A stretch of DNA of 64,000 bases from an uncultured Eubacteriales bacterium (GCA_964346815.1 CAYFWF010000003.1:181559-245558), one strand, 5' to 3'; numbered from the stretch's first letter, positions 43,605 through 63,529 are shown. The notes: generated by a model from the sequence alone, not told the origin. Translations and numbers: made by a program.

Positions 43605-44783
43605 TTAAGAAAAAAGTGCCAGAACTTTTTTGTAGGTATTGGTCACTCCCCTGACTGCCCTTCCAAAGCATTTCTGTTTGAGCTTTACAGCATGAAACCG
43701 ACAGACTTCATGACAGCACATACAGTGTATGCAGCATGATCGGTCTATCGAGGCCGCCTTATCTTGTTTCCGAGCAGCTCCTGCAGGACAGATATCGACA
43801 CATTCCCAACAACCCGTGCATCTCTTTTTGATTATTTCAGGCATCAGTATCAGTTGATCTTGAACAAAGGCATGAAGGAAGGCTGGGATTCTTCTTCGGA
43901 TCAGCCCTACGGCGATAGAAGATTGTCTGAAATCTTTAACTCTGACATCCTGTATTTTCTCTCCGAGGATGTCGATCTTTTCTAACTGTCCGGTGCCGAG
44001 CCCCCTTTCGGACGCAAATTGGGTGGTCAGGACATCGAACGGATCCAGACCAATGATTTTGGATGCCACCGCATCCAAGGCTGGAGCGTCAAGGCTGGCG
44101 AGGATGAGATTCACTCTCTTGGGATTGCCCGCAGATGGTCCCTCTCCCTCCATCGCGACAATGGCGTCCATGATATTCAGATTGGGGGGTGCACAGGAAA
44201 AAATATCAACGAGCATCTGGCTGAAAAGCTCGTTTTTAAAAAATTGGCGGTGGTAGCTGCTCCGTAGACCATGTGGGATAATACCATACATATTTTTTAC
44301 AGCTCCAGTGAAAACTGTGAAAGAGTGTGTCTTTAATTTGGGGAGGTTGATGAGGTAATCTGATTCGAGCACGAGAGGGGAGACAAAGGCTTCTTTCAAG
44401 ACTTTCCCCTCTAATCTGATTCTTCTAAAGCCTGTTTCCTTGAGATTCACGAGACGAATACCGAGTTCGTTACAGAGCTCACGATAGCCTGAAATCTGGA
44501 ATCCGTTTTTTTGTTTTGCCTGGATGTCGTCTCCAACAGTGATTGTACACCCCATGTCCTTCAGGAGAAGAAGGACTTCCCTGGTGAATGCGGGATGCGT
44601 GACAATGGCTTCTTCAGGCGGCGAAGGAGGGGACAGGTGATTGATTTTGACGAAAACATGGGATCCTGGCCTTACGATATTTTCTAATCCCCCCAACAGG
44701 GAGAGCGCCTGAACCAGCGCTTGATGCAGGATGCCGCTCCGATACTTATGAATTCCTCGAAGAGAAACTTTTGCATGTTTCAC
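43605..44783 (-). CDS. DUF362-domain protein fused to a C-terminal 2x[4Fe-4S] ferredoxin domain
   Basis: DUF362 core NLPKLKTHSFTVFTGAVKNMYGIIP. C-terminal CTGCWECVDICP and CIHCMCCHEVC cysteine clusters. Confidence 0.65.
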   Translation of the reverse strand: MKHAKVSLRGIHKYRSGILHQALVQALSLLGGLENIVRPGSHVFVKINHLSPPSPPEEAIVTHPAFTREVLLLLKDMGCTITVGDDIQAKQKNGFQISGYRELCNELGIRLVNLKETGFRRIRLEGKVLKEAFVSPLVLESDYLINLPKLKTHSFTVFTGAVKNMYGIIPHGLRSSYHRQFFKNELFSQMLVDIFSCAPPNLNIMDAIVAMEGEGPSAGNPKRVNLILASLDAPALDAVASKIIGLDPFDVLTTQFASERGLGTGQLEKIDILGEKIQDVRVKDFRQSSIAVGLIRRRIPAFLHAFVQDQLILMPEIIKKRCTGCWECVDICPAGAARKQDKAASIDRSCCIHCMCCHEVCRFHAVKLKQKCFGRAVRGVTNTYKKVLALFS

Positions 44784-48789: not shown

Positions 48790-51150
48790 GTGAAGCATTT
48801 GAAGTTTTTTCCTGTGTTTGTATCTCTGGTTGCTTTCCCCTTTATCCTGTCTTCGGGCTTGGATGCCGAAGTTCCGTATCAATGGAAGAATGTATACATC
48901 GGAGCCTTAGAGGCGAGAGCATGGGCGGGCTTGATGATGATTCCCTATCCAGACAGCGCCTTCGCCTTTCGATTGAGAACCATCAAGCAAGAAGCGATGG
49001 CCGAAGGAATAGACCACCTCTTTCTTGTGTCTGAAGTAGGTCCCCATTCTCCTGACGGACAGTATGCACGCATGAAATTCGATCTAGGTTTGCCATTTGG
49101 AAAAGAGGAAGACACCCCAATTTTGAAAAAGCCATCTAAAAAGTCCTCGACTCTGGTCATGGAGTGGTCTCGGCAGAGTGAGAGAATCGTCACAGGGAGA
49201 ATTTTTGTTCCTGAAGATATTGAGCTGCAGTTGATTCATTATTTTCCATGGAACTTTGGGGGAAAGTATCAGTTCCTTTCAGATGGACAAATCAGAGGAG
49301 AAAGTACATCCTCTCAACAGCAACATTATCTGTTCTGGACAAACACAGAAGGAAAAGAAGTCGAAAACTCTGAGGGGGACAATCTCGCTTTGACATTCTC
49401 GTCAAAAAAGATTTATTTCGTAGCCGGCGTGGGAAGGGATTTAAGGATTCTTCAGAATCAGATCTACAGATATAAGAACGAAGGGATTATTGATAAATTT
49501 TTATCAGAAGAGGAGAAAAGGTACCAGCGGAAAAGGGTCAGGATCCGTGGACTGTACGAGGGCGTCGAGGAGGCTATCACAAACAACCTTTTTTGGACCA
49601 TCCTCTACCAGGCAGGAAATCACCGTGTGTATACACCTGCCGGTCGGCGTTGGATTTTCCCTCGAGGAGATGGATCATATGACCATTGGACAATTTTCGA
49701 ATGGGATTCTTTTTTCAATGCCCTTTTGCTGTCAGTAGAGAGCACAAAACATGCAAAAGAAGTCATGAAGTCTGTGCTTGAGACTCAATATCCGAATGGA
49801 AACATTCCAAATTGGCGGGGAAGATATACAGGGACTCCGGACAGGTCTCAACCGCCCATTGGCTCCTACTGTGTTCTCAAGTGTTTTCAGAAGGACGGAG
49901 ATTTGGAATTTCTTCGGTATGCGTATCCCTTTCTGAAGAGATGGCACTCCTTCTGGAAGGCCAGGAAGTCGAATAGTCAGGCCCGCCGAGATGGTAATGG
50001 AGATGGCCTTTTAGAATGGGGATCGGATACAGAGCTCATAGCTTCCGACCCTCCACCGTGGGAGGAGGATGCCAGCGGAGAGACCCGGGCCAGTTGGGAG
50101 TCCGGCCAGGATGATCTCCCCAACTGGGATAAAGCGACCTTCGACGAGGATACCAATACACTGACCATGAATTCACTGGACCTGAATTCTTTATATGCTC
50201 TTGATGCTTGGTGCTTGGCAGAAATCGCCAAGATTCTCAAGAACGAGCGGGAATATACGGCTTACATCGAAGAATATCTGCACATGAAGGACCTTATCAA
50301 TACTTATCTCTGGAATGAAACAGAAGGATTTTATTTCGATAGATACTGGGATGGCCGCTTTTCTGAAAAAAAGGCTGCTTCGAATTTTTATCCACTCATC
50401 GCCAAAATCCCAGACAGGCAAAGAGCTCTGTTGATGATAAAGCGACTTCTCAACGAGCAAGAATTCTGGGGTGAATATGTGATCCCCACCATATCAAGAG
50501 ATGATCCGGCATTCAAGGACCAGGATTATTGGAGGGGGAATATTTGGCCCCCACCCAATTATTTGATTTATCAAGGACTCAAGGCTTATGGCTTTGATGC
50601 GGTCGCCTCAGAGTTTGCCGAAAAGAGTGCGAATCTTTTCCTCCGAAGTTGGGAGAATTTCCAGATCTGTCCAGAAAATTTTGATGCTCGTACCGGGGAA
50701 GCAGGAGGAAGGAGGTTTCAGAGTTGGGGCCCTCTGTTTGCCTTGATTGCCCTGGAAGAATACTTGGATTTCACGCCTTGGGACGGATTCAGGTTCGGAA
50801 TGATAAAGCCTGAAAAAAAAGGAAAGCTTTCCAGGATCTTTATCCAGGGCAGACATTACGATGTTGTGCTTTCACCTTCCAAGGTCAAATTGAAAGAAGA
50901 AGGAAGGGATATTCTGGAGGCAGATGAAGCTGCCGTTTTTCGGCACTTTCTCTACTCGGAGAGTGAAGTCTCTTTTGAAGTCAAAACTCTTGAGGAGACA
51001 GAAATAAAAATTCATTTCCTTTCAAAAGGGAAGTATCAGCTTGAGGTGAACAATCAACCTTCAGAGGTCTTCGAGGGCAAATCGATCAAGGTGACTGTGC
51101 CTGAGGGGGAACACACTGTCCTCGTTCTTCTTCTGGAGAAAGAAAATTAA
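48790..51150 (+). CDS. secreted (alpha/alpha)6 six-hairpin glycoside hydrolase, clan GH-G (GH37 trehalase / GH63-like)
   Basis: Signal peptide. PRGDGSYDHWTIFEWDSFF resembles trehalase signature 1 (PGGRF.E.YYWDSY) and YWRGNIWPPPNY resembles signature 2 (QWD.P.GWAPP). 786 aa. Starts 4 nt after the radical SAM gene. Confidence 0.55.
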   Translation: MKHLKFFPVFVSLVAFPFILSSGLDAEVPYQWKNVYIGALEARAWAGLMMIPYPDSAFAFRLRTIKQEAMAEGIDHLFLVSEVGPHSPDGQYARMKFDLGLPFGKEEDTPILKKPSKKSSTLVMEWSRQSERIVTGRIFVPEDIELQLIHYFPWNFGGKYQFLSDGQIRGESTSSQQQHYLFWTNTEGKEVENSEGDNLALTFSSKKIYFVAGVGRDLRILQNQIYRYKNEGIIDKFLSEEEKRYQRKRVRIRGLYEGVEEAITNNLFWTILYQAGNHRVYTPAGRRWIFPRGDGSYDHWTIFEWDSFFNALLLSVESTKHAKEVMKSVLETQYPNGNIPNWRGRYTGTPDRSQPPIGSYCVLKCFQKDGDLEFLRYAYPFLKRWHSFWKARKSNSQARRDGNGDGLLEWGSDTELIASDPPPWEEDASGETRASWESGQDDLPNWDKATFDEDTNTLTMNSLDLNSLYALDAWCLAEIAKILKNEREYTAYIEEYLHMKDLINTYLWNETEGFYFDRYWDGRFSEKKAASNFYPLIAKIPDRQRALLMIKRLLNEQEFWGEYVIPTISRDDPAFKDQDYWRGNIWPPPNYLIYQGLKAYGFDAVASEFAEKSANLFLRSWENFQICPENFDARTGEAGGRRFQSWGPLFALIALEEYLDFTPWDGFRFGMIKPEKKGKLSRIFIQGRHYDVVLSPSKVKLKEEGRDILEADEAAVFRHFLYSESEVSFEVKTLEETEIKIHFLSKGKYQLEVNNQPSEVFEGKSIKVTVPEGEHTVLVLLLEKEN

Positions 51151-51177: not shown

Positions 51178-51972
51178 ATGAACATGAAAAATTATACAGG
51201 GACAATAAGGTCCACTTCATTTGTCAACAAGACCTGCCTGATTTCAGGAGCAGCATCGGGAATTGGTTTGGCAGTCACTCGATGCATGGCTCACGCTGGA
51301 GCCGATGTCGCGTTGATAGACATCGATGAAAAAGGCGGAAGACAGGCGGAAGAAGATCTCCAGGCGCTCCGGGTCAAATCGAAATTCTACCCCTGCGATG
51401 TCGGCCAAAGTTCTGACTGCCGGAAGACAGTCTCAGCCGTGCTGAAGGATTTTGAAAAAATAGATATTCTGGTGAACAATGCTGGGATTATCCTTAGAAA
51501 AGACATCGTCGAGTTGAGAGAGGACGAGTGGGATAGAGTGATGAATACAAACTTGAAGTCCGTCTATCTGCTCTCACATTATACCGTTCCTCATATGATC
51601 GAGCAGGGTGGGGGAAGCATCATCAATATCGGATCCGGCTGGGGCCTCAAAGGAGGACCGAAGTCTGCGGTTTACTGTGCGGCAAAAGGAGGCGTCGTCA
51701 ATCTGACACGTGCCATGGCTATAGACCATGGAAGGCATAACATACGGGTCAACTGCGTGTGCCCCGGAGACGTCGAAACCAAACTCCTCCGGGAAGAGGC
51801 AGGGCAGCTCCATATTGATTTTAAGGCGCTGATCAAAGAAGCAGCCAGAAGACCTCTTCCAAGGATCGGCAGTCCAGACGATGTGGCCGATGCCGTACTC
51901 TTTCTTGCCAGCGAGATGTCCAGTTGGGTCACGGGCAGCGTTTTGGTGGTAGATGGAGGGGGATTAGCATAA
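51178..51972 (+). CDS. short-chain dehydrogenase/reductase (SDR)
   Basis: Cofactor loop ISGAASGIGLA, NNAG motif, catalytic YCAAKGG (YxxxK). 264 aa. Confidence 0.85.
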   Translation: MNMKNYTGTIRSTSFVNKTCLISGAASGIGLAVTRCMAHAGADVALIDIDEKGGRQAEEDLQALRVKSKFYPCDVGQSSDCRKTVSAVLKDFEKIDILVNNAGIILRKDIVELREDEWDRVMNTNLKSVYLLSHYTVPHMIEQGGGSIINIGSGWGLKGGPKSAVYCAAKGGVVNLTRAMAIDHGRHNIRVNCVCPGDVETKLLREEAGQLHIDFKALIKEAARRPLPRIGSPDDVADAVLFLASEMSSWVTGSVLVVDGGGLA

Positions 51973-52033: not shown

Positions 52034-55000
52034 ATGAAAATTTTTGTTTCCAGGATGGCTTTTTGTCTTCTCTTTATTTTTTTCCTGTTTCAAGGTCATG
52101 GTCTTGGAGCAGGGGAGAGAAAAGATGCAGATCAGGATAAATATTCGATCGAAAACCTTCCATTAGGTGCCATGAAATTCAGATCCATCGGACCCGCTCT
52201 GACTTCAGGAAGGATATCTGATTTTGCCGTAAATCCCCAGAAGAGAAGTGAGTATTATGTTGCCACCTCTTCCGGAGGTGTTTGGAAGACCACAAATGCA
52301 GGAACGACCTTCGAGCCGCTTTTTGACAGTCAAGAATCCTACTCCATCGGATGTATCACGCTCGATTCCCATAATCCCAATGTCATCTGGGTAGGGACTG
52401 GAGAAAACAACAATCAGCGCAGCGTTGGCTATGGGGAAGGAGTGTATAAATCTATAGATGGCGGAAAAACCTGGGAAAACGTGGGGCTCGAATCCTCAGA
52501 GCATATCGGTATGATCGTCATCGATCCCAGAGATTCAGATGTGGTCTATGTAGCAGCTTATGGGCCTCTGTGGAGTCCAGGAGGAGAAAGAGGTCTTTAC
52601 AAATCGATAAACGGAGGCAAGTCGTGGGATGCTGTGCTGACCATTAGTGAACATACGGGCATCAGCGAGGTCCATCTTGACCCCAGAAATCCTGATGTCA
52701 TCTATGCGGTCGCTCATCAAAGGCGGAGACATGTGTTTACCTTGATCGACGGCGGGCCCGAATCAGGTATTTACAAATCCTCAGATGCAGGAAAGACTTG
52801 GGAGGAAATAAACAAAGGTTTACCTGGCGGAGATCTTGGTAGGATTGGGTTAGCCATATCTCCGGCTGATCCGGAATTCATGTATGCAATTGTCGAAGCT
52901 CAAAGAGGCAAGGGAGGTTTTTACAGAAGCACGAATAGAGGAGCCTCTTGGGAACGGAGAAGCAGCTACACCTCCAGGGGAAACTATTATCAAGAACTGT
53001 TTTGCGACCCGGAAGATCCGCAGCGCGTCTATTCTATGAATGTCTATCTCCAGGTTACAGATGACGGAGGAATATCCTGGCGGAATCTGGGCGAGCGGAG
53101 CAAGCACGTGGACAATCACGCCATGTGGATCGATCCCCATGATACGGATTACTATCTTGTGGGATGCGATGGAGGGATCTATGAATCCTTTGACAGGGGA
53201 AAAACATGGAATTATATGCCGAATCTGCCGGTCACACAGTTTTATAAAGTCGCGGTGGACACTGCCGAGCCCTTCTATAATGTCTACGGCGGGACCCAGG
53301 ATAACTCCAGCATAGGAGGGCCCTCACGCACGACCAGTTCACATGGTATTGTCAATTCTGATTGGTATATCACTCATGGCGGGGATGGTTTCGAGTCTCA
53401 GATCGATCCCGAGGACCCGAATATCGTGTATTCTCAATCTCAGTATGGAAATCTGGTGCGTTTTGACAAAAAAAGCGGAGAGAGGCTCGGAATACAGCCC
53501 AAGGAAAGAAAGGGTGAAAAATCGTACCGTTGGAATTGGGACGCTCCGCTGCTGATCAGCCCTCACTCCCACACCAGACTCTATTTTGCCGCTAACAAGC
53601 TCTTCCGCAGCGATGACAGAGGAGGAAGCTGGGAGGTGATAAGTGAAGATCTGACGCGGCAGATTGACCGCAACAAGCTTAAGGTCATGGGCCGAATATG
53701 GCCGATGGATGCAGTGGCTAAAAATGCATCCACATCTCCCTATGGAACAATCGTTGCCCTGGATGAGTCTCCAGTCCAAGAGGACCTTCTGGTAGTGGGG
53801 TCTGATGACGGGTTGATCCAGGTCACAGAGGACGGAGGAAAAACCTGGCGGAAGATAGAAAAATTTCCTGGTGTGCCTGAGGGGACATATGTCAATGAAG
53901 TGCTGGCGTCTCAGCATGATAAAAATACAATGTATGCGGCTTTTAACGACCACAAAAACGGCGACTTCAAGCCCTATTTGCTCAAGAGCACAGATGCCGG
54001 AAAAACTTGGGTATCGATTTCTTCCAATCTGCCCGAGAGAGGATCGGTTTACGCTTTGGCTGAAGATCATATCGAAAGGAACCTGCTCTTTTGTGGAACA
54101 GAGTTTGGCGTGTTTGTTACTCTGGATGGGGGGAAAGGCTGGAAACAACTCAAAGCCGGTCTTCCCACTATCGCTGTTCGGGATATAGCGGTCCAGAAGA
54201 GGGAAAACGATCTCGTGCTGGCGACTTTTGGACGTGGATTTTACATCCTCGATGATTACACTCCTCTCCGGTTTCTCAATTCAGGTACTTTGGATCAGGA
54301 TACTTTTATATTCCCAATAAAAAAAGCTTGGATGTTTGAGGAGTATGGCCGCTTGGGTGGCGGAAATAAGGGATCTCAGGGAGAGATGTATTTTACAGCC
54401 GAAAATCCTCCTTTCGGGGCAACCATCACCTATTATTTGAAAGAAGATATTCAAACACTCAAGGAGAAACGGGAGCAGGAAGAAAAAAAAGCGATCAAAA
54501 ATAACCAACCGGTTTATTATCCTTCCTATGAGCAAATGAAGGCAGAACAGGAAGAAGAGATTCCCTTCTTAGTTTTTACTATTTTAGACGAAGAGGGATA
54601 TGTGGTGCGGCGGCTGAGGGAGAAACCAAAAGCCGGCATGCATAGAATGACCTGGGATCTCAGATATCCTGGCGCGGGTCCAACTTCCACAAGAGATGTC
54701 ATCCCAGCCTCGAGCGGTCCCTCAAGCACTTTCGTTCTTCCAGGAAAGTATACAATTTATTTGTCCAAAAATGTCAATGGAAAGGAAACAAAACTGACAG
54801 AGCCGGTGGGTTTCGATGTAGAGACTCTCGGCCTGGCGACTCTCCCTGCTGAAGATCGGGCCGAATTGGTGGCCTTCCAGAAAGAAGTGAGGGAGTTAAA
54901 CAGAGCGGTCCTTGCAGCTTCAGACATTGTTAGGGAACTCAATGATAAAATCCAGCATTTCAAGGTAGCTCTGAAGAGTATCACTACACAAGAAGCAGGG

Positions 55001-55330
55001 CTTCGTGCAGATATCCAAACCGTGGAACAAAAGGTGGCTGACATCCAAAGAAAGCTGTTCGGAGACAGCATCATGAGGCGAATAGACAGGGACGCTGAAC
55101 CAGGTCTGTATTCACGGATCAGAAGGATCATTTATGATCAGAGGCGCTCCACATCTGCCCCCACCCAGTCTCAAAGAGATGCCTACCAGATTGTGGCAGA
55201 AGAATTCCCTCCTGTTCTTGCGTCCTTGAAGAAAATCGTTGAGGAAGATATCAAGAAGATCGAGGATAAGCTCGAAGAAATAGGAGCTCCCTATACACCC
55301 GGGCGTCTTCCTGAGTGGAAGCGAAAATGA
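52034..55330 (+). CDS. secreted BNR/Asp-box repeat protein (sortilin/VPS10- or GH74-like double beta-propeller) with C-terminal coiled-coil region
   Basis: Signal peptide. Ten S/T-x-D-G-G-K-T-W Asp-box repeats read directly (SIDGGKTW, SINGGKSW, SSDAGKTW, STNRGASW, TDDGGISW, FDRGKTW, SDDRGGSW, TEDGGKTW, STDAGKTW, LDGGKGW). 1098 aa. Confidence 0.75.
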   Translation: MKIFVSRMAFCLLFIFFLFQGHGLGAGERKDADQDKYSIENLPLGAMKFRSIGPALTSGRISDFAVNPQKRSEYYVATSSGGVWKTTNAGTTFEPLFDSQESYSIGCITLDSHNPNVIWVGTGENNNQRSVGYGEGVYKSIDGGKTWENVGLESSEHIGMIVIDPRDSDVVYVAAYGPLWSPGGERGLYKSINGGKSWDAVLTISEHTGISEVHLDPRNPDVIYAVAHQRRRHVFTLIDGGPESGIYKSSDAGKTWEEINKGLPGGDLGRIGLAISPADPEFMYAIVEAQRGKGGFYRSTNRGASWERRSSYTSRGNYYQELFCDPEDPQRVYSMNVYLQVTDDGGISWRNLGERSKHVDNHAMWIDPHDTDYYLVGCDGGIYESFDRGKTWNYMPNLPVTQFYKVAVDTAEPFYNVYGGTQDNSSIGGPSRTTSSHGIVNSDWYITHGGDGFESQIDPEDPNIVYSQSQYGNLVRFDKKSGERLGIQPKERKGEKSYRWNWDAPLLISPHSHTRLYFAANKLFRSDDRGGSWEVISEDLTRQIDRNKLKVMGRIWPMDAVAKNASTSPYGTIVALDESPVQEDLLVVGSDDGLIQVTEDGGKTWRKIEKFPGVPEGTYVNEVLASQHDKNTMYAAFNDHKNGDFKPYLLKSTDAGKTWVSISSNLPERGSVYALAEDHIERNLLFCGTEFGVFVTLDGGKGWKQLKAGLPTIAVRDIAVQKRENDLVLATFGRGFYILDDYTPLRFLNSGTLDQDTFIFPIKKAWMFEEYGRLGGGNKGSQGEMYFTAENPPFGATITYYLKEDIQTLKEKREQEEKKAIKNNQPVYYPSYEQMKAEQEEEIPFLVFTILDEEGYVVRRLREKPKAGMHRMTWDLRYPGAGPTSTRDVIPASSGPSSTFVLPGKYTIYLSKNVNGKETKLTEPVGFDVETLGLATLPAEDRAELVAFQKEVRELNRAVLAASDIVRELNDKIQHFKVALKSITTQEAGLRADIQTVEQKVADIQRKLFGDSIMRRIDRDAEPGLYSRIRRIIYDQRRSTSAPTQSQRDAYQIVAEEFPPVLASLKKIVEEDIKKIEDKLEEIGAPYTPGRLPEWKRK

Positions 55331-55443: not shown

Positions 55444-56946
55444 GTGAATATGAATATCTACATCGTCATCATCCTTTGTTATCTGGCGGCTTTGACCATC
55501 ATGAACTTTTGGAGATCGAGCCGGGTCAAGACTAAAGATGATATGATGGTTGCGGGACGCCAAATCTCCGTGACAAAGATGGTGTTCACGTTGATCTGCA
55601 CATGGATCGGGAGCGGCACCTTCATTGCCGGAGCCGAATTTGCGGCAAAGGCTGGATGGAGTTCGCTCTGGTTTCCTGCAGGCGCCTGGGTGGGTATCAT
55701 CATAATCTATTTTCTTGCAGCAAAAATTAGGACATTCGGCCAGTATACTGTAGGAGATATCCTGGAAGTCAGGTATGGCCCGATCGCACGGGTGGTTGGA
55801 GCTATTGCCATCCTTATCAGCTTTACCGTTATCGTGAGCTACCAGTTCAAAGCGGGAGGGTATATCCTAAACGCAATATCAGAAGGAGCCATTTCTGAAG
55901 ATCAGGGGATGTTCATGTCCTTTGTTTTTGTGACGCTGTTTTTAGCAGTCGGAGGAATGGTTGCCGTGGCCAATACCGACCTTCCCAATGGAATCATCAT
56001 CCTGACATCCACAATTCTTGCCACCCCGCTTACCATGATCGCAGCAGGAGGATGGGAAAAGATCAAAACTATCCTTCCCGAATCTCACTTCCAGGTCATC
56101 AGTCAGGAATTCGGAGCAAATCCATACCTGAAAATTCCAGCCATTGGTCTCTCCACACTGATGCTCCTTCTCGGTGTCCAGAGCATGTATCAGAAATTCT
56201 ACAGTGCTCGCAATCCCCACGAAGCCAAAAAAGCGGCGGGCATCTGGGTTGTGGGAACCATCATCGTCGAAGGTGTAGCCATTGTTATCGCCATTTATGC
56301 TGCAGCCTATTTTTGGCCGGAGCTTCAAGCCGGCACCATGGATCATGCGGCAGTGATCATTCAGGCAGCAAAGAGAATGATCTGGCTTCCTGTAGGGGTC
56401 TTATTGTTAGGTGCCGCTACTGCAGTCGTGATTTCTACGGGCATGAATTATCTCTTATCTCCTACCACTACCATGCTGCACGATATTTACCTGAGGTTCA
56501 GTAAAAAGGACAAATCTCAAGTGAATCTGGTGTGGCCGCAGAGAATTCTGATTATCCTTTTGGGAGTTGTGGCTTTCTATTTAAGCTGGAGAATGGTCTC
56601 TGTTCTCGAGCAGGCCTATTTCGCCTACACTCTGTATGGAGTGGTTATCACTCCGGCTTTGCTTGCAGCCTTGATCTGGAAAAGAGCCACAAAGACCGCA
56701 GGGATCGTGTCGATTGTCCTTGGCACAATCGTTACGCTGTCATTAAAACTTGCAGGAACTTTCTGGCCCTCTATTATGAAACCCGTGGGGGATCCCAATG
56801 CAGATCCTTTCGGGATTCCCATCATCTATTGGGGGCTCGGCGTGTCTATCCTCAGCCTGGTATTGATTTCCTTATTCACCAAGCCTCCTTCTAAGGAAGT
56901 ACTGGACATATTTTTCCGCAGAAAAGAGAAAAAAGAACGGTTCTAG
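55444..56946 (+). CDS. sodium:solute symporter (SSS family) transporter
   Basis: 500 aa, about 13 TM segments. SSS-type N-terminal region (MVAGRQISVTKMVFTLICTWIGSGTFIAGAEFAAKAGW). Confidence 0.8.
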   Translation: MNMNIYIVIILCYLAALTIMNFWRSSRVKTKDDMMVAGRQISVTKMVFTLICTWIGSGTFIAGAEFAAKAGWSSLWFPAGAWVGIIIIYFLAAKIRTFGQYTVGDILEVRYGPIARVVGAIAILISFTVIVSYQFKAGGYILNAISEGAISEDQGMFMSFVFVTLFLAVGGMVAVANTDLPNGIIILTSTILATPLTMIAAGGWEKIKTILPESHFQVISQEFGANPYLKIPAIGLSTLMLLLGVQSMYQKFYSARNPHEAKKAAGIWVVGTIIVEGVAIVIAIYAAAYFWPELQAGTMDHAAVIIQAAKRMIWLPVGVLLLGAATAVVISTGMNYLLSPTTTMLHDIYLRFSKKDKSQVNLVWPQRILIILLGVVAFYLSWRMVSVLEQAYFAYTLYGVVITPALLAALIWKRATKTAGIVSIVLGTIVTLSLKLAGTFWPSIMKPVGDPNADPFGIPIIYWGLGVSILSLVLISLFTKPPSKEVLDIFFRRKEKKERF

Positions 56947-57006
56947 ATAAGGCGAACACGATTCGCTGGGGTGGCTCAAAAAAATAGAAGATCTAAGAGG
57001 ATTTCG

Positions 57007-57477
57007 ATGCGCATCCAATTTTTTAAGCTCATTGTCAGTCTTGTTATCTGTCAACTGGCGGGTTTGGCCGGCTCTCTTTTTACTGCGCCTGCAATTCCCA
57101 GCTGGTACGCTTCTCTCCAAAAACCTACCTTTACTCCCCCGAGTTGGCTGTTCTCGCCCGTCTGGATCTTTCTTTATATCCTCATGGGCGTTGCTCTCTA
57201 TTTGATCTGGCAAGCTGGTTCTCAAAGAGAAGCGAAAACGGCCCTTGTTCTTTTTGCTCTACAGCTCATCCTGAACATATCGTGGTCGGTGATCTTTTTC
57301 GGTTTGAGATCTCCGATGTGGGCCTTCTTAGAAATCATTGTTCTGCTGTTGGCCATATTCCTGACCATTCTCAAATCTTTAAGAGTCTCGAAAACAGCCG
57401 GCTATCTGCTCCTGCCGTACTTGATTTGGGTCGGCTTTGCATCTGTCCTCAACTACTTCTTTTGGAGGCTCAATTGA
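57007..57477 (+). CDS. tspO: TspO/MBR (tryptophan-rich sensory protein) family membrane protein
   Basis: Five-TM, Trp-rich; PSWYASLQKPTFTPPSWLFSPVWIFLYILMGVALYLIW is a close match to the TspO N-terminal consensus. AGAGGA SD before ATG at 57007. Confidence 0.8.
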   Translation: MRIQFFKLIVSLVICQLAGLAGSLFTAPAIPSWYASLQKPTFTPPSWLFSPVWIFLYILMGVALYLIWQAGSQREAKTALVLFALQLILNISWSVIFFGLRSPMWAFLEIIVLLLAIFLTILKSLRVSKTAGYLLLPYLIWVGFASVLNYFFWRLN

Positions 57478-57594: not shown

Positions 57595-58416
57595 TCATTT
57601 CCGACTCTTATCAGCCAGATAGGCTCTTTTGAGTGTGTCGCCTCTGACTCCTTGTCTCAAAGCCTCCAGGGCCAAAACTTCATCCGGCGGGATATTCCCC
57701 AGACAGACTTCGGGTCCAAAACGGATGATGAGCTCTTGCTGTTGGTTTTTAATCGGCGCTTCCCAGAGCAGTTGATTGGCATCGTCCACACCTGCAACGA
57801 TGTTTTCCATCTCATCTTTTTTGATCCTCCCATCTGAATCGAATATCCCCACTCCCCGGCCTGCTTCACGAGCTTCAATGATCACCTTAAAAGCTCCATT
57901 TTGAAGATCCTCTTTGATCAGCTTGTGAACAAGTGCAATCGGAAGAGCCTCTTTGGGATCTTTCTTGCCGACTTCAGTGATCACCTTAAATCCTTTCTCC
58001 AATGCTTTATTTATGATTTTTATTCTCATAACAGGATCCAATTCTATCGTTCCATCGGAAATCTCAACGGCAGAAAAACCCAATTCTTTAGCTCTTTCCA
58101 AATATTTCTCCTCATCTCCTTTCCAGAGCGCGATCTCAAGAAAGGTGCCTCCAGGCATAACATCGATCTGTGCTGAAACTAGAGCGTCAATTTTTTCTCT
58201 TAAGACCTCCTTTTCATAGAAAGCCGATGTCCCGAATGTCAGCTTGAGGACATCGATGTATTCTCCCGAAGTCTGGATGAGGTCTGTTATTTGATTCAAT
58301 CCCATCCCTTTATCGATCACCATCGTCAAGCCGGTCGTCCGGGGTTTCGAGGATCGGCCTTTGACTGGAATCTCGGTAACGCCTTCCCAAGCTTTGGTCA
58401 TTTGCCTTACCTCCAC
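57595..58416 (-). CDS. (2R)-phospho-3-sulfolactate synthase (ComA) family protein
   Basis: 273 aa. ComA-family core GLTMVIDKGMGL…DVLKLTFGTSA…GFSAVEISDGTIEL. TIM-barrel PEP-binding family. Confidence 0.7.
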   Translation of the reverse strand: MEVRQMTKAWEGVTEIPVKGRSSKPRTTGLTMVIDKGMGLNQITDLIQTSGEYIDVLKLTFGTSAFYEKEVLREKIDALVSAQIDVMPGGTFLEIALWKGDEEKYLERAKELGFSAVEISDGTIELDPVMRIKIINKALEKGFKVITEVGKKDPKEALPIALVHKLIKEDLQNGAFKVIIEAREAGRGVGIFDSDGRIKKDEMENIVAGVDDANQLLWEAPIKNQQQELIIRFGPEVCLGNIPPDEVLALEALRQGVRGDTLKRAYLADKSRK

Positions 58417-58419
58417 CGC

Positions 58420-59439
58420 TTATTTAAGGATATTTTCCCAGCAGTCTCTAGGGTTGGACAACACAGTAGAGATCTCTAAATTTGAGCTTCGCTGTACAAG
58501 CGCATTGACTGCTGCCAGACGGTCCTTTGCCATCTCTATTTCATCCAGCCCTAATATGACGAGTTTATCGTACAGAATAACGGATTCTGCCAATTTTTGA
58601 GTGATGTTGTCAAAAAGTTTTTTTTGTGCTCTTTGCTTTTCCTGGATGGGATTGATGATGGATTTCTCGAACCCTCTCTCCATCCGGGGAAAGAAGATAC
58701 GGACTGAAGAGGGATTTTCGATGATTTTCCGCTGAGCTTTATGTTCAGATAGATCGAGGGCAATCTTTTTCTGCCAGAGTTCCTGAGGCGCCGGCTTCTC
58801 CCCATCCAAAAGAAACCTCGGAAAATCATAGAGCAGGGTTCCATACCGGATGTTGTCAACTAAAGATCCCATCTGCCAAACGACATTGTCTTTATTGATC
58901 TGGAAGTGAACGGTTTCCGTCGAAAAGAGTTTTAATCCCTTCTCTATTCCTCTGAGAAGAAAAACGGTCTTGCCGCTTCCAGCTCCCCCGATGAACACGA
59001 AGAGACTGTCTGACTCCTCTTCATATAAGGCACAGGCATGAAAATTATACATCCTGTGTTTTTTTTCGAGCAAATAGAGCGCGTATCTATACAGAAATCC
59101 CTGATTGCCCCAGAGGGTATACCTCGGATCAGAAGCTCTTGCTTGCAATTTAAGAAAAGGCCCTCTAAAGAGGATGCGATGATTCTTCTTTTCATAAAAG
59201 GGTTCAGAAGGTTCGTCGGTAATTGAAATGTAACCGTCCAAGTCCGAGCTGAAAGGTATGCTTTCTACTGTTCTGAAATCAGTCAGGAGCGATTCGATCT
59301 TTGTCTCTAATGTCAGGTGTGGCAGAAGCTTTTCCCGGTTGGACTGAATTCCAATGGAAGCCTGGAGTATCTTAACTGCGGTTGTGAACATACAAACCCT
59401 GGAATGTCGATAGTCAAAATGATTTAAGAGAATTATCAT
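58420..59439 (-). CDS. HPr-kinase C-terminal-domain-like P-loop protein (uncharacterised kinase/phosphotransferase)
   Basis: FVFIGGAGSGKTVFLLRGIEKGLKLFSTETVHF aligns to the HprK-C P-loop plus following helix ([27 protein letters not shown]). No HprK N-domain. 4 nt downstream of the ComA-like gene on the same strand. Confidence 0.45.
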   Translation of the reverse strand: MIILLNHFDYRHSRVCMFTTAVKILQASIGIQSNREKLLPHLTLETKIESLLTDFRTVESIPFSSDLDGYISITDEPSEPFYEKKNHRILFRGPFLKLQARASDPRYTLWGNQGFLYRYALYLLEKKHRMYNFHACALYEEESDSLFVFIGGAGSGKTVFLLRGIEKGLKLFSTETVHFQINKDNVVWQMGSLVDNIRYGTLLYDFPRFLLDGEKPAPQELWQKKIALDLSEHKAQRKIIENPSSVRIFFPRMERGFEKSIINPIQEKQRAQKKLFDNITQKLAESVILYDKLVILGLDEIEMAKDRLAAVNALVQRSSNLEISTVLSNPRDCWENILK

Positions 59440-59520
59440 ACATGATAATCGATCAAAAAGCGACTGTCAAAAGGGACAGCAGGCAGGCAAGCATATCCAA
59501 GCAGGTCCCCGATTCATCCA

Positions 59521-60231
59521 TTATTTAGTAGACGTGTGAAGAGCGCAGACGCCCAGAAAAAATTTTCGACAGACAACACGAGAAAACCCTGTATCTCTGA
59601 GAATCGAAGAAAATTCTTCAGGACCGTAAAAACGAGGGATGGTGAAAGAGAGATATCTGTAACCCGCTTTGGAACCCGAGAAAAGATAACCGACCGGTCG
59701 CACGGCCAATTTAACATAAGAATGAAAAATCTGTCTCAATGGTTTGAATGAGGGCTGGCTGGTTTCCAGGTTTAAAAAATGCCCGCCTGGTTTCAGTACC
59801 CTGAAAAATTCTTTGAGATAGAATTCCAGAACATTCATGCGTATGTTCAGATTCCGGGTGGCGAAAGATATGGTCACCAGATCGAAACATCCATCGGGAA
59901 AAGGGAGCGATCCAGCCTCGGCGATACCAAAAAAGATATTGGAACGGCGTCTTTTTTTCTTTGCTCTTTTCTTTGCTCTTGCCAGCATCGAGGCAGAAAA
60001 GTCGACAGCGAATATTTGGACCTCTTCGGCAGCACATCCTGAAAGACTATGGGCCATTTCTCCTGTGCCGCTGCAGACATCCAACCATAAGGTCCCACCA
60101 AGTCGAGAAGCCGTTTTGGCCGTTTTATGCCTCCAGAAAATATCCAGCCCGAAGGTCAATATATGGTTGATGACTTCATACCTGTGTGCAACATCTGCAT
60201 AGATTTTCTGAACGCCCTTCCTGACTCTCAT
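59521..60231 (-). CDS. class I SAM-dependent methyltransferase (UbiE/COQ5-like) with internal Lys/Arg-rich insertion
   Basis: SAM-binding motif I LDVCSGTGEMA and post-I acidic residue. Insertion RAKKRAKKKRRRS, partly generated by the 12-nt tandem duplication at 59956..59979. Confidence 0.8.
   Translation of the reverse strand: MRVRKGVQKIYADVAHRYEVINHILTFGLDIFWRHKTAKTASRLGGTLWLDVCSGTGEMAHSLSGCAAEEVQIFAVDFSASMLARAKKRAKKKRRRSNIFFGIAEAGSLPFPDGCFDLVTISFATRNLNIRMNVLEFYLKEFFRVLKPGGHFLNLETSQPSFKPLRQIFHSYVKLAVRPVGYLFSGSKAGYRYLSFTIPRFYGPEEFSSILRDTGFSRVVCRKFFLGVCALHTSTK
59956..59979. repeat. perfect 12-nt tandem duplication (TTTCTTTGCTCT x2) inside the methyltransferase CDS, encoding RAKK-RAKK
   Basis: Read directly from sequence; in frame on the minus strand. 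Confidence 0.8.
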
Positions 60232-62323: not shown

Positions 62324-63529
62324 TCATTTCAAGCGTTTGTCAGAATGCACCGGGCGGTTTTTCGTTCTGAGCGGGGAACTTTTAGATAAAGAGTAAATCA
62401 TTAAAGTGAGGATTCCGAGTACAGCCAGAAAAATGAAGGGGGAACTTATGCCGAATTTATCGGAAAGAAATCCTGATAACAGCACAATGAGAGCACCTGT
62501 GAGCATCTGAATATTTGCCACGAGGCTGAATGCGACGACATGATCCCTCTCCGGAATTTTATTGGCCACGAAGGATTGGAAGGCAGGGAAAACGAGGAAG
62601 AGGAAGGCTCCGTAAAGGAAAAGGCCTATAACGGCAATCCCCGGAACGGAAGACGAACCCAAGAGAATGAGGAATAAAGTTGAGCAGGTTAAACTCATGA
62701 CAGATGCGTTCTTGCGGCCGATGCGTCTGAACAGATAGCCGTACATATAGGTCATCACTGTCCCGATCCCTATCCAGGAAGCCAGGAAAATTCCCGTATT
62801 TCCTAGAGGCACTTTGAATTTATGGTTAAACAGGGAAGGCGCATAATAGACGGTCGTTCCCCAACAGGCCCCTCCGAAAACAAAGCCAAGGACATAAATT
62901 TTGATATCCTTGAGAGTCCTTATCCAGGAGGCGAAATCCGGACTGATGGGATTTTTCGTTTTTAGAGAGATATTACGGACGGCAAGAAAGCTGAACAGCC
63001 CGAGAATCAAGCTGGCCGCTGCACAGGCGTATAAGGGGATTTTCCAGCCAAAGTTTTGGGCGAGAAAGCCAGACAAAATAAAGGCGGTAAATACCCCAAG
63101 GTTTCCTGAGCCGCTTTGAATACCCATGGCAAAGTCGAGACCTTGGTCGGGATGGGCTCTTGATACTGTAGCTATGCCGACGGGGTGGTAAAGGCTTATG
63201 GACATTCGCATCAAAAGGTAGAAGAAAAGCATGGATACGAAGCTTTCTGTTAGGGTGATCATAAAAAGTGTTAAGGATATTCCCGCTACGCTGATCAGAA
63301 GCATATGCCTGTATTCGAACTTGTGGGCATGATGAGCAATAACGATTTGGAACAAGAGTGTAACGAGGAGGCCGAGGTTGGACATGATGCCGATATCAGA
63401 ATAATTTTTGATGATGAATTGCTGGCTGAAGAGAAGCGGAAAAATCATCGGAACAGTTACGGCAGTGGCATCATTCAAGGCGTGGAAGAGGGAGGCGGAA
63501 ACCAGGATCTTTTTTTTCATTTTTGGCAA
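62324..63529 (-). CDS. MFS transporter
   Basis: 401 aa, 12 predicted TM helices with two six-helix halves. Confidence 0.8.
   Translation of the reverse strand: MPKMKKKILVSASLFHALNDATAVTVPMIFPLLFSQQFIIKNYSDIGIMSNLGLLVTLLFQIVIAHHAHKFEYRHMLLISVAGISLTLFMITLTESFVSMLFFYLLMRMSISLYHPVGIATVSRAHPDQGLDFAMGIQSGSGNLGVFTAFILSGFLAQNFGWKIPLYACAAASLILGLFSFLAVRNISLKTKNPISPDFASWIRTLKDIKIYVLGFVFGGACWGTTVYYAPSLFNHKFKVPLGNTGIFLASWIGIGTVMTYMYGYLFRRIGRKNASVMSLTCSTLFLILLGSSSVPGIAVIGLFLYGAFLFLVFPAFQSFVANKIPERDHVVAFSLVANIQMLTGALIVLLSGFLSDKFGISSPFIFLAVLGILTLMIYSLSKSSPLRTKNRPVHSDKRLK

What the first reader, a model, noticed from the sequence alone, without database searches (positions are those of the whole stretch)
57595..60231. 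Triad of ComA-like phosphosulfolactate synthase homolog, HprK-C-like P-loop protein and SAM methyltransferase
Three same-strand genes with 4-nt and 82-nt gaps. They encode a PEP-utilising ComA-family TIM barrel (sulfite addition to PEP in coenzyme M biosynthesis is the known function), a P-loop protein whose Walker A and following helix match the HPr kinase C-terminal domain but which lacks the HprK N-domain, and a UbiE-type methyltransferase carrying an unusual K/R-rich insertion. No ComB/ComC partners are present. The combination (C3 phospho/sulfo-acid synthase, kinase or phosphotransferase, methyltransferase) suggests synthesis or modification of a small phosphorylated or sulfonated metabolite, or of a peptide. 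I cannot name the pathway.
Basis: inference. Interest (0 to 1): 0.5.

Follow-up and report, generated by a model that had tools for sequence, protein, structure and literature searches.

The report
PEPCK-like kinase paired with ComA
Two of the three genes form a tightly conserved pair (an uncharacterised mini PEP-carboxykinase-like phosphotransferase plus a phosphosulfolactate synthase homolog) whose gene neighbourhoods in sulfite-reducing bacteria suggest a new ATP-dependent route that breaks down the common organosulfonate sulfolactate into PEP and sulfite; the methyltransferase is only a neighbour.

Summary
The three minus-strand genes are real, in a Candidatus Aminicenantes genome. The ComA homolog passes NCBIfam's equivalog cut-off. 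The methyltransferase is an ordinary UbiE/MenG-type enzyme.

Only P-loop→ComA is a conserved module. ComA follows the P-loop gene in 77/77 Aminicenantes loci and 72/72 metagenome loci that have room, including P-loop homologs only 31–35% identical. The methyltransferase is adjacent in about 60% of Aminicenantes loci and absent elsewhere.

In Thermodesulfobacteriota-type relatives the pair sits in operons with:
- TTT or Ssu-type importers;
- a LarA-family racemase and a D-2-hydroxyacid dehydrogenase;
- pyruvate,phosphate dikinase;
- TauE/YeiH exporters and genuine dsrAB.

Best reading (about 0.5): the P-loop protein phosphorylates (R)-sulfolactate, and ComA runs in reverse to release PEP and sulfite. 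This would be an undescribed alternative to SuyAB.

Main rival: sulfolactate biosynthesis, with the P-loop protein as a mini-PEPCK or a ComB analog.

No biochemistry exists. The Aminicenantes neighbourhood itself says little about function.

The parts
58420..59391 (-). Gene for a 323-aa P-loop protein. It is a new small family in the PEPCK/HprK phosphotransferase superfamily and the proposed sulfolactate 2-kinase. The longest ORF extends to 59439.
57595..58416 (-). ComA homolog (phosphosulfolactate synthase family), proposed to run as a phosphosulfolactate sulfo-lyase giving PEP and sulfite. The likely start is the ATG at 58401.
   Evidence: PF02679 scores 299 bits and TIGR03849 scores 341 bits against a cut-off of 280. 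It scores 193 bits against 1QWG. It lies immediately downstream of the P-loop gene in 77/77 and 72/72 loci with room. A GGAGG motif precedes the ATG at 58401.
59442..59470 (-). Promoter-like site (TTGACA, 17 nt, TATCAT) upstream of the P-loop gene, between it and the methyltransferase.
   Evidence: It matches 11 of 12 positions. The region's total count of such sites is no higher than in shuffles, so this is suggestive only. The sequence is shown.
62324..63529 (-). MFS transporter on the same strand. It is a candidate carrier for the substrate or product in Aminicenantes.
   Evidence: PF07690 scores 133 bits. Its orthologs lie directly upstream of the P-loop gene in 9 Aminicenantes loci and nearby in about 22. 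It is absent from the non-Aminicenantes loci.
59521..60231 (-). UbiE/MenG-type SAM methyltransferase. It is a syntenic neighbour in Aminicenantes and not part of the conserved module.
   Evidence: TIGR01934 scores 188 bits against a cut-off of 158. It is directly upstream of the P-loop gene in 43 of 71 Aminicenantes loci with upstream sequence, and displaced or missing in the rest. It is absent from 80 metagenome loci. The K/R run is a 4-aa insertion unique to this genome.

Best explanation
The functional unit is the gene pair P-loop protein then ComA.

The P-loop protein is a miniature PEPCK-like phosphotransferase. I propose that it uses ATP (the donor is untested and could be PPi) to phosphorylate the 2-hydroxyl of (R)-3-sulfolactate. 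Sulfolactate is the sulfonate look-alike of malate and oxaloacetate. The product is (2R)-phospho-3-sulfolactate.

ComA then runs opposite to its biosynthetic direction and eliminates sulfite to give PEP.

Net reaction: sulfolactate + ATP -> PEP + sulfite + ADP. PEP is then turned into pyruvate with recovery of ATP (PPDK or pyruvate kinase), or used directly for gluconeogenesis. Sulfite is exported, or reduced by DsrAB.

In this Aminicenantes window the nearby MFS protein is the candidate sulfolactate carrier. The methyltransferase is unrelated.

Shown: the gene pair is real, its linkage is conserved, the fold and catalytic-motif assignments hold, and the neighbourhood content is as described.

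Inferred: the substrate, the phosphoryl donor and the direction of flux.
For: Pair linkage:
- ComA follows the P-loop gene in every locus with room: 77/77 Aminicenantes genome loci and 72/72 metagenome loci. Median spacing is about +10 and -10 nt.
- This includes P-loop homologs only 31-35% identical to the window protein (L084, L085).
- Relatives at 22-34% identity over partial alignments have other neighbours. The coupling therefore defines a subfamily.

Phosphotransferase assignment:
- hhalign preserves the Mn-binding His, the P-loop Lys/Thr and the kinase-2 acidic residue.
- Distant family members give sub-threshold PEPCK_ATP and Hpr_kinase_C hits.
- PEPCK is known to bind C3 sulfonates. 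A PDB entry with beta-sulfopyruvate (4gmz) appears among the Foldseek hits.

Catabolic context in Deltaproteobacteria/Thermodesulfobacteriota-labelled relatives, with the number of loci for each neighbour:
- TctCBA importer: 31 loci. The known sulfolactate importer SlcHFG is of this type (PMC5812351).
- Ssu/Tau-type NMT1 binding-protein ABC systems: counted in 6 loci from shared ATPase/permease clusters. NMT1-type binding proteins were confirmed in L097 and L166. L085's ATPase is MalK-like.
- LarA-family racemase: 15 loci.
- D-2-hydroxyacid dehydrogenase: 22 loci.
- GntR/FCD regulator: 15 loci.
- True PPDK directly upstream: 22 loci.
- TauE/SafE: 5 loci.
- YeiH 'sulfate export' protein directly after ComA: 1 locus.
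- Genuine dsrA and dsrB in the same-strand cluster: 6 loci, scoring 567 and 520 bits, both above the equivalog cut-offs.
- Also present near the pair: a CobB/CobQ-type amidotransferase after dsrAB and DsrMK-like genes (by Pfam domains only), POR, and an ADP-forming acyl-CoA synthetase.
- Sources for this list.
- 32 of 38 loci of at least 6 kb hold an importer or a sulfite-handling gene.

Third lineage: an aldehyde dehydrogenase lies upstream, and an NMT1 binding protein or a Psr/Soe-like molybdoenzyme lies downstream.

ComA in these operons still passes the ComA equivalog cut-off (330 against 280).

Literature:
- In the held library (which lacks most subscription journals), the phrase 'sulfolactate kinase' returned no papers, and none of the titles or passages I examined describes a catabolic role for ComA.
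- In the passages retrieved from a 2026 review, SuyAB is the sulfolactate-cleaving enzyme named (PMC12890257).
Against: - No enzyme assay exists for any member of the family.
- ComA has only been shown to work in the synthetic direction. Sulfite addition to PEP is probably favourable, so reversal needs low sulfite. This is my own thermodynamic estimate, not a computed value.
- One lineage (L117, L120, L144; P-loop proteins 99-100% identical to each other) has a ComB-family phosphatase in the same operon. With a kinase present that would form a futile cycle.
- PPDK, pyruvate carboxylase subunits and a class I fumarase/tartrate-dehydratase-like pair upstream can also be read as suppliers of PEP or oxaloacetate for synthesis.
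- The LarA homolog hits the 'malate racemase LarAH5' equivalog, so the acid handled could be something other than sulfolactate.
- The window and the 80 Aminicenantes loci contain none of the telling neighbours: no TTT, TauE, Dsr, LarA or PPDK. Transfer to this genome rests on orthology at 33% (P-loop) and 46-48% (ComA) identity.
- Most informative metagenome loci come from one clade that is 74-89% identical, so they are not independent samples.
Confidence: 0.5

Rival explanations
1. Biosynthesis. ComA makes phosphosulfolactate from PEP and sulfite, as in methanogens. The P-loop protein serves that route in one of two ways. It could be a true mini-PEPCK making PEP from oxaloacetate. Or it could be a non-homologous ComB substitute that removes the phosphate, for example by HprK/P-like phosphorolysis to PPi. 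The product would be sulfolactate, used as an osmolyte, a sulfite sink or a cofactor precursor.
For: ComA passes the equivalog model built on biosynthetic enzymes. The best fold match is PEPCK itself. Enzymes that form PEP or oxaloacetate sit directly upstream: PPDK in 22 loci, biotin carboxylase plus a biotin carrier in 7, and a fumarase/tartrate-dehydratase-like pair in 3-6. One lineage has P-loop, ComA, LarA, ComB in a row. HprK/P is known to run a PPi-forming phosphorolysis (my own knowledge).
Against: A dedicated PEP source strictly tied to ComA is hard to justify, because PEP is a central metabolite. The protein is 323 aa against more than 500 aa for PEPCK, and it does not reach the PEPCK_ATP gathering score (11.5 against 26.5). 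Substrate-binding-protein importers, a GntR regulator, a racemase, sulfite exporters and dsrAB in the same clusters are features of catabolic operons. ComB occurs in only one lineage.
Confidence: 0.25
2. Same two-step logic (kinase plus a ComA-type lyase), but acting on a different 3-substituted 2-hydroxy acid imported by the TTT system, or on sulfopyruvate or cysteate-derived intermediates rather than free sulfolactate.
For: The LarA homolog scores as a LarAH5 'malate racemase' (564 against 462). Fumarase/tartrate-dehydratase-like genes, CoA transferases, MaoC and glutamate mutase genes lie nearby in some loci. TTT systems carry many different carboxylates (PMC5812351).
Against: ComA in these clusters is 46-48% identical to the window ComA and passes the ComA equivalog cut-off. 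Sulfite-specific neighbours (dsrAB, TauE, YeiH, Ssu-type binding proteins) argue for a sulfonate. No redox-neutral elimination from phosphomalate would give PEP (chemical reasoning).
Confidence: 0.12
3. One reading: the methyltransferase, the P-loop protein and ComA together build or modify one methylated, phosphorylated or sulfonated metabolite or peptide.
For: The three genes are on the same strand and close together. The methyltransferase is directly upstream of the P-loop gene in 43 Aminicenantes loci.
Against: The methyltransferase is missing or displaced in the other Aminicenantes loci and absent from all 80 non-Aminicenantes loci that keep the pair. It matches the ubiquinone/menaquinone methyltransferase subfamily above cut-off. 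Its K/R run is not conserved. A strong promoter-like site separates it from the pair. The whole region is syntenic across Aminicenantes and includes housekeeping genes, so adjacency alone carries little weight.
Confidence: 0.05
4. The P-loop protein is an HprK-like protein kinase/phosphorylase that regulates ComA or another protein, and is not a metabolic enzyme.
Against: PEPCK matches better and over twice as many residues, including the N-terminal domain. The protein has no HprK N-domain. The gene is translationally coupled to ComA inside metabolic operons.
Confidence: 0.05

Closest known systems
SuyAB (R)-sulfolactate sulfo-lyase systems (suyAB with slcHFG, slcC/comC and suyZ/cuyZ)
   Same: The proposed overall job is the same: release sulfite from imported sulfolactate. 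The accessory set is also the same: a TTT importer, a way to racemise the substrate, a sulfite/sulfate exporter, and coupling to dsr in anaerobes (PMC5812351; PMC6018796).
   Different: No SuyAB-type genes were noted among the recurrent or annotated neighbours; no explicit search with a SuyAB sequence was made. Two unrelated enzymes (a PEPCK-like kinase and a ComA TIM barrel) would do the job by phosphorylation followed by beta-elimination. The product would be PEP rather than pyruvate, at the cost of one ATP.
ComA/ComB/ComC/ComDE coenzyme M pathway of methanogens, and XcbB of Xanthobacter
   Same: ComA here is a clear family member (TIGR03849 above cut-off, 193 bits against 1QWG). The intermediate, (2R)-phosphosulfolactate, is the same.
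   Different: No ComB was found in the window or the Aminicenantes loci, and ComC was not searched for. There is an obligate P-loop partner that is not described in the papers on methanogen and Xanthobacter CoM biosynthesis that I read. The neighbourhoods look catabolic. The proposed direction is reversed.
ATP-dependent PEP carboxykinase (PckA)
   Different: The protein is 323 aa against about 540 aa. It falls below the Pfam gathering score. The large oxaloacetate-binding N-terminal domain is reduced to about 95 residues. The proposed substrate is a 2-hydroxy sulfonate, with no decarboxylation.
HPr kinase/phosphorylase C-terminal domain
   Different: There is no HprK N-domain and no above-threshold Hpr_kinase_C hit. 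The protein has extra domains that align with PEPCK. The gene context is metabolic.
Enolase step of glycolysis (2-phosphoglycerate to PEP plus water)
   Same: The proposed ComA-reverse step is formally analogous: beta-elimination of the C3 substituent from a 2-phospho acid to give PEP.
   Different: The leaving group is sulfite rather than hydroxide. The fold and family are different (the ComA TIM barrel).

Membership tests
ComA / phosphosulfolactate synthase (PF02679, TIGR03849) | Profile match above the curated cut-off over the full length | tested here: met
   PF02679 scores 299.5 bits against 25.2. TIGR03849 scores 341 bits against 280, covering residues 24-263 of the protein and 2-241 of 241 profile positions.
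ComA / phosphosulfolactate synthase (PF02679, TIGR03849) | Close similarity to a ComA with a solved structure | tested here: met
   It scores 193 bits (E 5e-56) against M. jannaschii ComA (1QWG) over residues 28-263, and 122 bits against 1U83.
ComA / phosphosulfolactate synthase (PF02679, TIGR03849) | Catalyses PEP + sulfite <-> (2R)-phosphosulfolactate; physiological direction | not testable with these tools
   This needs an enzyme assay. The direction is inferred only from the neighbourhoods of relatives.
Coenzyme M biosynthesis pathway (ComA-B-C-DE) | Partner genes comB, comC and comDE present | tested here: not met
   No ComB homolog was found in the window or in 80 Aminicenantes loci (tblastn). 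ComC and ComDE were not searched for explicitly, and the rest of the genome was not available.
HPr kinase/phosphorylase (PF07475 Hpr_kinase_C) | Profile match above the gathering score | tested here: not met
   The window protein gives no hit even at E<=10. Distant relatives reach only 13-23 bits against a cut-off of 33.3.
HPr kinase/phosphorylase (PF07475 Hpr_kinase_C) | Fold of the C-terminal kinase domain | tested here: met
   [not shown]
HPr kinase/phosphorylase (PF07475 Hpr_kinase_C) | N-terminal HprK domain and an HPr protein substrate | tested here: not met
   The residues outside the P-loop domain align with PEPCK instead (244 residues aligned). No HPr gene was noted next to the pair in any locus examined. 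The substrate itself cannot be tested here.
ATP-dependent PEP carboxykinase (PF01293) | Profile match above the gathering score and a full-length (>500 aa) architecture | tested here: not met
   The score is 11.5 bits against 26.5, over profile positions 184-227 only. The protein is 323 aa.
ATP-dependent PEP carboxykinase (PF01293) | PEPCK fold including part of the N-terminal domain | tested here: met
   [not shown]
ATP-dependent PEP carboxykinase (PF01293) | Catalytic core: Mn-binding His232, P-loop Lys254/Thr255, Asp269 | tested here: met
   hhalign of family alignment A2 against E. coli PckA 203-313 (sequence verified against 1AQ2) gives probability 92% and E 6.5e-7. It pairs H118 with H232, K141/T142 with K254/T255, and E159 with D269. 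H118 and K141 are invariant across the superfamily alignment.
ATP-dependent PEP carboxykinase (PF01293) | Oxaloacetate/CO2-binding residues (Arg65, Tyr207, Lys212/213, Arg333) | tested here: inconclusive
   The hhalign alignment starts after Lys213 and ends before Arg333. No residue-level structural superposition was available.
UbiE/MenG methyltransferase (TIGR01934, PF01209) | Profile match above the subfamily cut-off | tested here: met
   TIGR01934 scores 188.5 against 158.35 and PF01209 scores 180.5 bits. The equivalog-level models are not reached (183 against 216).
Organosulfonate (sulfolactate) desulfonation gene cluster (functional class) | Substrate importer, sulfite exporter or reductase, and regulator clustered with the C-S cleaving enzymes | tested here: inconclusive
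   This is met in Thermodesulfobacteriota-type relatives: TTT in 31 loci, dsrAB in 6, TauE in 5, YeiH in 1, Ssu-type ABC in 6, GntR in 15. It is not met in this window or the Aminicenantes loci, where only an MFS transporter is nearby.

The most novel reading that the evidence does not exclude
A previously unrecognised route of organosulfonate breakdown. A new family of miniature PEPCK-like kinases phosphorylates sulfolactate. ComA, so far known only as a biosynthetic enzyme of coenzyme M, works in reverse as a phosphosulfolactate sulfo-lyase. The products are PEP and sulfite, and the sulfite feeds dissimilatory sulfite reduction in uncultured Thermodesulfobacteriota. The same module would be used by Aminicenantes.
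Probability: 0.45. Interest if true: 0.8.

Novelty: new variant of a known kind. Interest (0 to 1): 0.7.

Why it matters
Sulfolactate is a major end product of sulfoquinovose and DHPS breakdown, so it is a large pool of environmental organic sulfur. In the passages retrieved from a 2026 review, SuyAB is the enzyme named for cleaving it directly (PMC12890257).

A kinase plus reverse-ComA route would be a second, mechanistically different solution. It would yield PEP instead of pyruvate.

If true, it would:
- reassign the many bacterial 'phosphosulfolactate synthase' annotations in anoxic sediments that have no coenzyme M context;
- link uncultured sulfite reducers and Aminicenantes to sulfonate cycling and sulfide production;
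- give a function to a protein family that is annotated everywhere as hypothetical.

It is directly testable with two recombinant enzymes and commercially accessible substrates.

Tried and rejected
- Sequence searches of the P-loop protein, and of its family profile, against PDB sequences gave only chance P-loop hits. Only structure prediction exposed the PEPCK relationship.
- The afdb50 fold library was unavailable.
An 8-sequence alignment worked.
- I looked for P-loop/ComA fusion proteins among the longer family members. P0169 is a frameshift artefact, and P0218 and P0230 are just longer relatives.
- I considered sulfopyruvate 'desulfo-phosphorylation' by analogy with PEPCK decarboxylation. 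I rejected it on chemical grounds, because SO3 is not a plausible leaving group.
- I considered that the secreted GH63/MGH1-like protein and a GT2 seen near the pair in Aminicenantes point to a glycosyl-sulfolactate solute. I rejected this as unsupported. The GH gene is convergent and its product carries a signal peptide. The whole region is a conserved syntenic block that includes housekeeping genes.
- I checked whether AFOR and D-2-hydroxyacid dehydrogenase homologs in the window (35105-36949, 39247-40161) belong to the module. They are 17-22 kb away, among genes that look like serine and amino-acid metabolism.
- Literature searches for a sulfolactate kinase, for Aminicenantes together with sulfolactate, and for recent phosphosulfolactate papers found nothing relevant.
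Full report
**What is in the window**

The interval 57595-60231 holds three minus-strand ORFs. Homologs of the middle protein carry names such as 'Candidatus Aminicenantes bacterium', which identifies the source lineage.

- The distal gene (57595-58416) is an unambiguous ComA-family protein. Pfam ComA scores 299 bits and NCBIfam TIGR03849 'phosphosulfolactate synthase' scores 341 bits against an equivalog cut-off of 280. It scores 193 bits against the solved M. jannaschii enzyme. Its likely start is the ATG at 58401, behind a GGAGG motif.
- The proximal gene (59521-60231) is a UbiE/MenG-type SAM methyltransferase, with TIGR01934 at 188 bits against 158.
- The middle gene encodes a protein with a GGAGSGKT Walker A motif that matches no Pfam or NCBIfam family. 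All 120 listed homologs are about 323 aa and start at the second Met of the ORF (59391).

**The P-loop protein**

This is a small, uncharacterised family. A profile search of 1.84 billion cluster representatives found only 159 clusters. Every source name is 'hypothetical protein'.

Sequence comparison with PDB chains gave only chance hits. An AlphaFold2 model built on 26 homologs is confident, with mean pLDDT 89 and pTM 0.87.

- In Foldseek the top 43 hits are all PEPCKs (E from 1e-7), followed by HprK/P.
- A profile of the wider family aligns with E. coli PckA residues 203-313 at 92% probability.
- That alignment pairs invariant H118 with the Mn ligand H232, the P-loop K141/T142 with K254/T255, and the conserved acidic residue E159 with D269.
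- Distant family members also give sub-threshold PEPCK_ATP and Hpr_kinase_C hits.

The protein is better described as a miniature PEPCK-like phosphotransferase.

**What is conserved**

In 80 genome loci (GTDB species representatives, almost all labelled Aminicenantes), ComA lies immediately downstream of the P-loop gene in all 77 loci that have room. The median gap is about 10 nt.

The methyltransferase is directly upstream in 43 of the 71 loci with upstream sequence. Elsewhere it is displaced by 1-3 kb or missing. In nine loci an MFS transporter orthologous to window gene 62324-63529 takes its place.

The whole region is a syntenic block that includes housekeeping-type genes. Adjacency within Aminicenantes alone therefore says little.

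The decisive result is that P-loop homologs only 31-35% identical to the window protein, from other lineages, are still followed by ComA (L084, L085). Relatives at 22-34% identity over partial alignments have unrelated neighbours.

A metagenome scan seeded with non-Aminicenantes members returned 80 more loci. ComA follows the P-loop gene in all 72 with room, often with overlapping stop and start. None of these loci has the methyltransferase, the MFS or the amidohydrolase.

The methyltransferase's 'K/R-rich insertion' is four residues long and found only in this genome. An 11/12 promoter-like site lies between the methyltransferase and the P-loop gene, although such sites are not enriched in the region.

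The triad is therefore really a pair plus a lineage-specific neighbour.

**What the neighbourhoods of the pair say**

Most metagenome loci belong to a clade whose members are labelled Deltaproteobacteria or Thermodesulfobacteriota MAGs. Around an invariant pair, the operons vary. The recurrent same-strand neighbours, with the number of loci for each, are:

| Neighbour | Loci | Note |
|---|---|---|
| TctC/TctB/TctA tripartite importer | 31 | |
| Pyruvate,phosphate dikinase | 22 directly upstream | 1363 bits, a true PPDK |
| D-2-hydroxyacid dehydrogenase | 22 | |
| LarA-family Ni-dependent 2-hydroxyacid racemase | 15 | often directly after ComA |
| GntR/FCD regulator | 15 | |
| Aldehyde:ferredoxin oxidoreductase | 8 | |
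| Biotin carboxylase with a biotin carrier | 7 | |
| Ssu/Tau-type ABC systems | 6 | counted from shared ATPase/permease clusters; NMT1-type binding proteins confirmed in L097 and L166 |
| TauE/SafE 'sulfite exporter' | 5 | |
| Genuine dsrA and dsrB | 6 | 567 and 520 bits, above equivalog cut-offs |
| YeiH 'putative sulfate export' protein | 1 | directly after ComA |

Near the dsrAB genes there are also a CobB/CobQ-type amidotransferase and DsrM/DsrK-like genes (identified by Pfam domains only), pyruvate:ferredoxin oxidoreductase subunits, and an ADP-forming acyl-CoA synthetase.

Locus L114 reads as a complete operon: POR, acyl-CoA synthetase, 2-hydroxyacid dehydrogenase, P-loop, ComA, LarA, TctCBA, dsrAB.

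Of 38 loci of at least 6 kb, 32 contain an importer of these types or a sulfite-handling gene.

In a third lineage (L097, L130), an aldehyde dehydrogenase and a class I fumarase-like pair precede the P-loop gene. An NMT1 binding protein, or a Fer4_11-NrfD protein plus a Psr/Soe-like molybdoenzyme, follows ComA.

ComA in these operons still passes the ComA equivalog cut-off.

**Proposed mechanism**

These are the hallmarks of known sulfolactate-degrading clusters:
- a TTT importer, as in SlcHFG (PMC5812351);
- a means of racemising sulfolactate;
- a sulfite or sulfate exporter;
- coupling to dsr in anaerobes (PMC6018796).

However, no SuyAB-type lyase genes were noted among the annotated neighbours. 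I did not search for them explicitly.

I therefore propose that the pair replaces SuyAB. The PEPCK-like enzyme binds sulfolactate, which is the sulfonate isostere of malate and oxaloacetate. PEPCK crystal structures with beta-sulfopyruvate exist, for example 4gmz. The enzyme would phosphorylate O2, the same oxygen that PEPCK phosphorylates. ComA would then eliminate sulfite from (2R)-phosphosulfolactate to give PEP.

PPDK or pyruvate kinase would recover the ATP. DsrAB, TauE or YeiH would dispose of the sulfite.

The strict coupling of the two genes is then explained, because phosphosulfolactate has no other known producer.

Three things are inferred and not shown: the substrate, the phosphoryl donor (ATP or PPi) and the direction of flux. 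My own rough thermodynamic estimate is that the overall conversion is near equilibrium and needs low sulfite. This was not computed.

**Why I am not more confident**

- There is no biochemistry for any family member.
- One lineage (three loci, P-loop proteins 99-100% identical) carries a ComB-family phosphatase in the operon. This fits synthesis better than breakdown.
- PPDK, pyruvate carboxylase subunits and the fumarase/tartrate-dehydratase-like genes can equally be read as suppliers of PEP or oxaloacetate. In that case the P-loop protein might be a true mini-PEPCK.
- The LarA homolog matches a 'malate racemase' equivalog.
- Most informative loci come from one clade that is 74-89% identical.
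- The window and all Aminicenantes loci lack these informative neighbours. The inference for this genome rests on orthology at 33% (P-loop) and 46-48% (ComA) identity, plus a nearby MFS transporter.

I put the catabolic kinase/lyase reading at about 0.5 and the biosynthetic reading at about 0.25. A different substrate, a methyltransferase-inclusive pathway and a regulatory kinase share the remainder.

**Novelty**

- In the held library (which lacks most subscription journals), the phrase 'sulfolactate kinase' returned no papers.
- None of the titles or passages I examined describes a catabolic role for ComA or a PEPCK-like partner of ComA.
- In the passages retrieved from a January 2026 review of sulfoquinovose catabolism, SuyAB is the enzyme named for sulfolactate cleavage.

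The components belong to known superfamilies, and the process (desulfonation of a C3 sulfonate) is known. The enzyme family, the pairing and the proposed route appear to be new. I class this as a new variant of a known kind, with high interest because two recombinant enzymes would settle it.

Noticed in passing
window 48790-51150 (+): A secreted 786-aa protein with an MGH1-like/GH63/trehalase-type glycoside hydrolase domain. Its orthologs lie convergent, right after ComA, in 52 of 78 Aminicenantes loci. In this window four genes are inserted between it and ComA: an SDR (51178-51972), a 1098-aa ORF (52034-55330), a 500-aa membrane protein (55444-56946) and TspO (56971-57477).
   Followed up: partly
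window 59391-59439 and 58401-58416 (-): The longest ORFs over-extend both genes. Homologs of the P-loop protein start at the Met encoded at 59391. ComA most likely starts at the ATG at 58401, after a GGAGG motif.
   Followed up: yes
L082 544-2946, L083: A distant relative of the P-loop family (about 22% identity) overlaps an upstream RNA 3'-terminal phosphate cyclase (RTC) gene and is followed by a metallophosphoesterase. This suggests another, unrelated role for this kinase superfamily branch.
   Followed up: no
L086 7742-9494: Another distant relative (about 30% identity) lies convergent to an Ldh_2 family gene. That family includes ComC sulfolactate dehydrogenase. This is a single observation.
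   Followed up: no
L094, L095, L097, L130 (directly upstream of the P-loop gene); L104, L126 (divergent): A two-subunit class I fumarase/L-tartrate-dehydratase-like Fe-S hydro-lyase recurs next to the pair in a separate lineage. Its role relative to sulfolactate is unexplained.
   Followed up: partly
L113, L115, L116, L149, L155, L159, L165, L169 (downstream of TctCBA): Glutamate mutase-like genes (a B12-binding MutS-like gene, MutL and MutE), together with CoA transferase subunits and a MaoC dehydratase, flank the pair in one operon type. It is unclear whether they belong to the same pathway.
   Followed up: no
L117, L120, L144 (about 4436-5155 in L120): A ComB-family phosphatase follows P-loop, ComA and LarA in one lineage, with biotin carboxylase upstream. 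This is the main observation that fits a biosynthetic rather than a catabolic reading.
   Followed up: partly
L130 9776-14198: A fused Fer4_11-NrfD protein and a 941-aa molybdopterin oxidoreductase follow ComA. The oxidoreductase's best PDB match is polysulfide/thiosulfate reductase PsrA (2vpw). This could be a Soe/Psr-type enzyme acting on a sulfur oxyanion.
   Followed up: partly
window 43605-44783 (-) and L120 5746-6888: A DUF362 protein with 4Fe-4S motifs occurs both 14 kb from the pair in this window and three genes after ComA in L120. This may be coincidence.
   Followed up: no
window 33786-36949 (-): An aldehyde:ferredoxin oxidoreductase is followed by a 440-aa protein with a class II aldolase/adducin domain. 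AFOR homologs also sit in the pair's operons in the Thermodesulfobacteriota-type loci, but here the gene is 21 kb away.
   Followed up: partly
[not shown]
   Followed up: no
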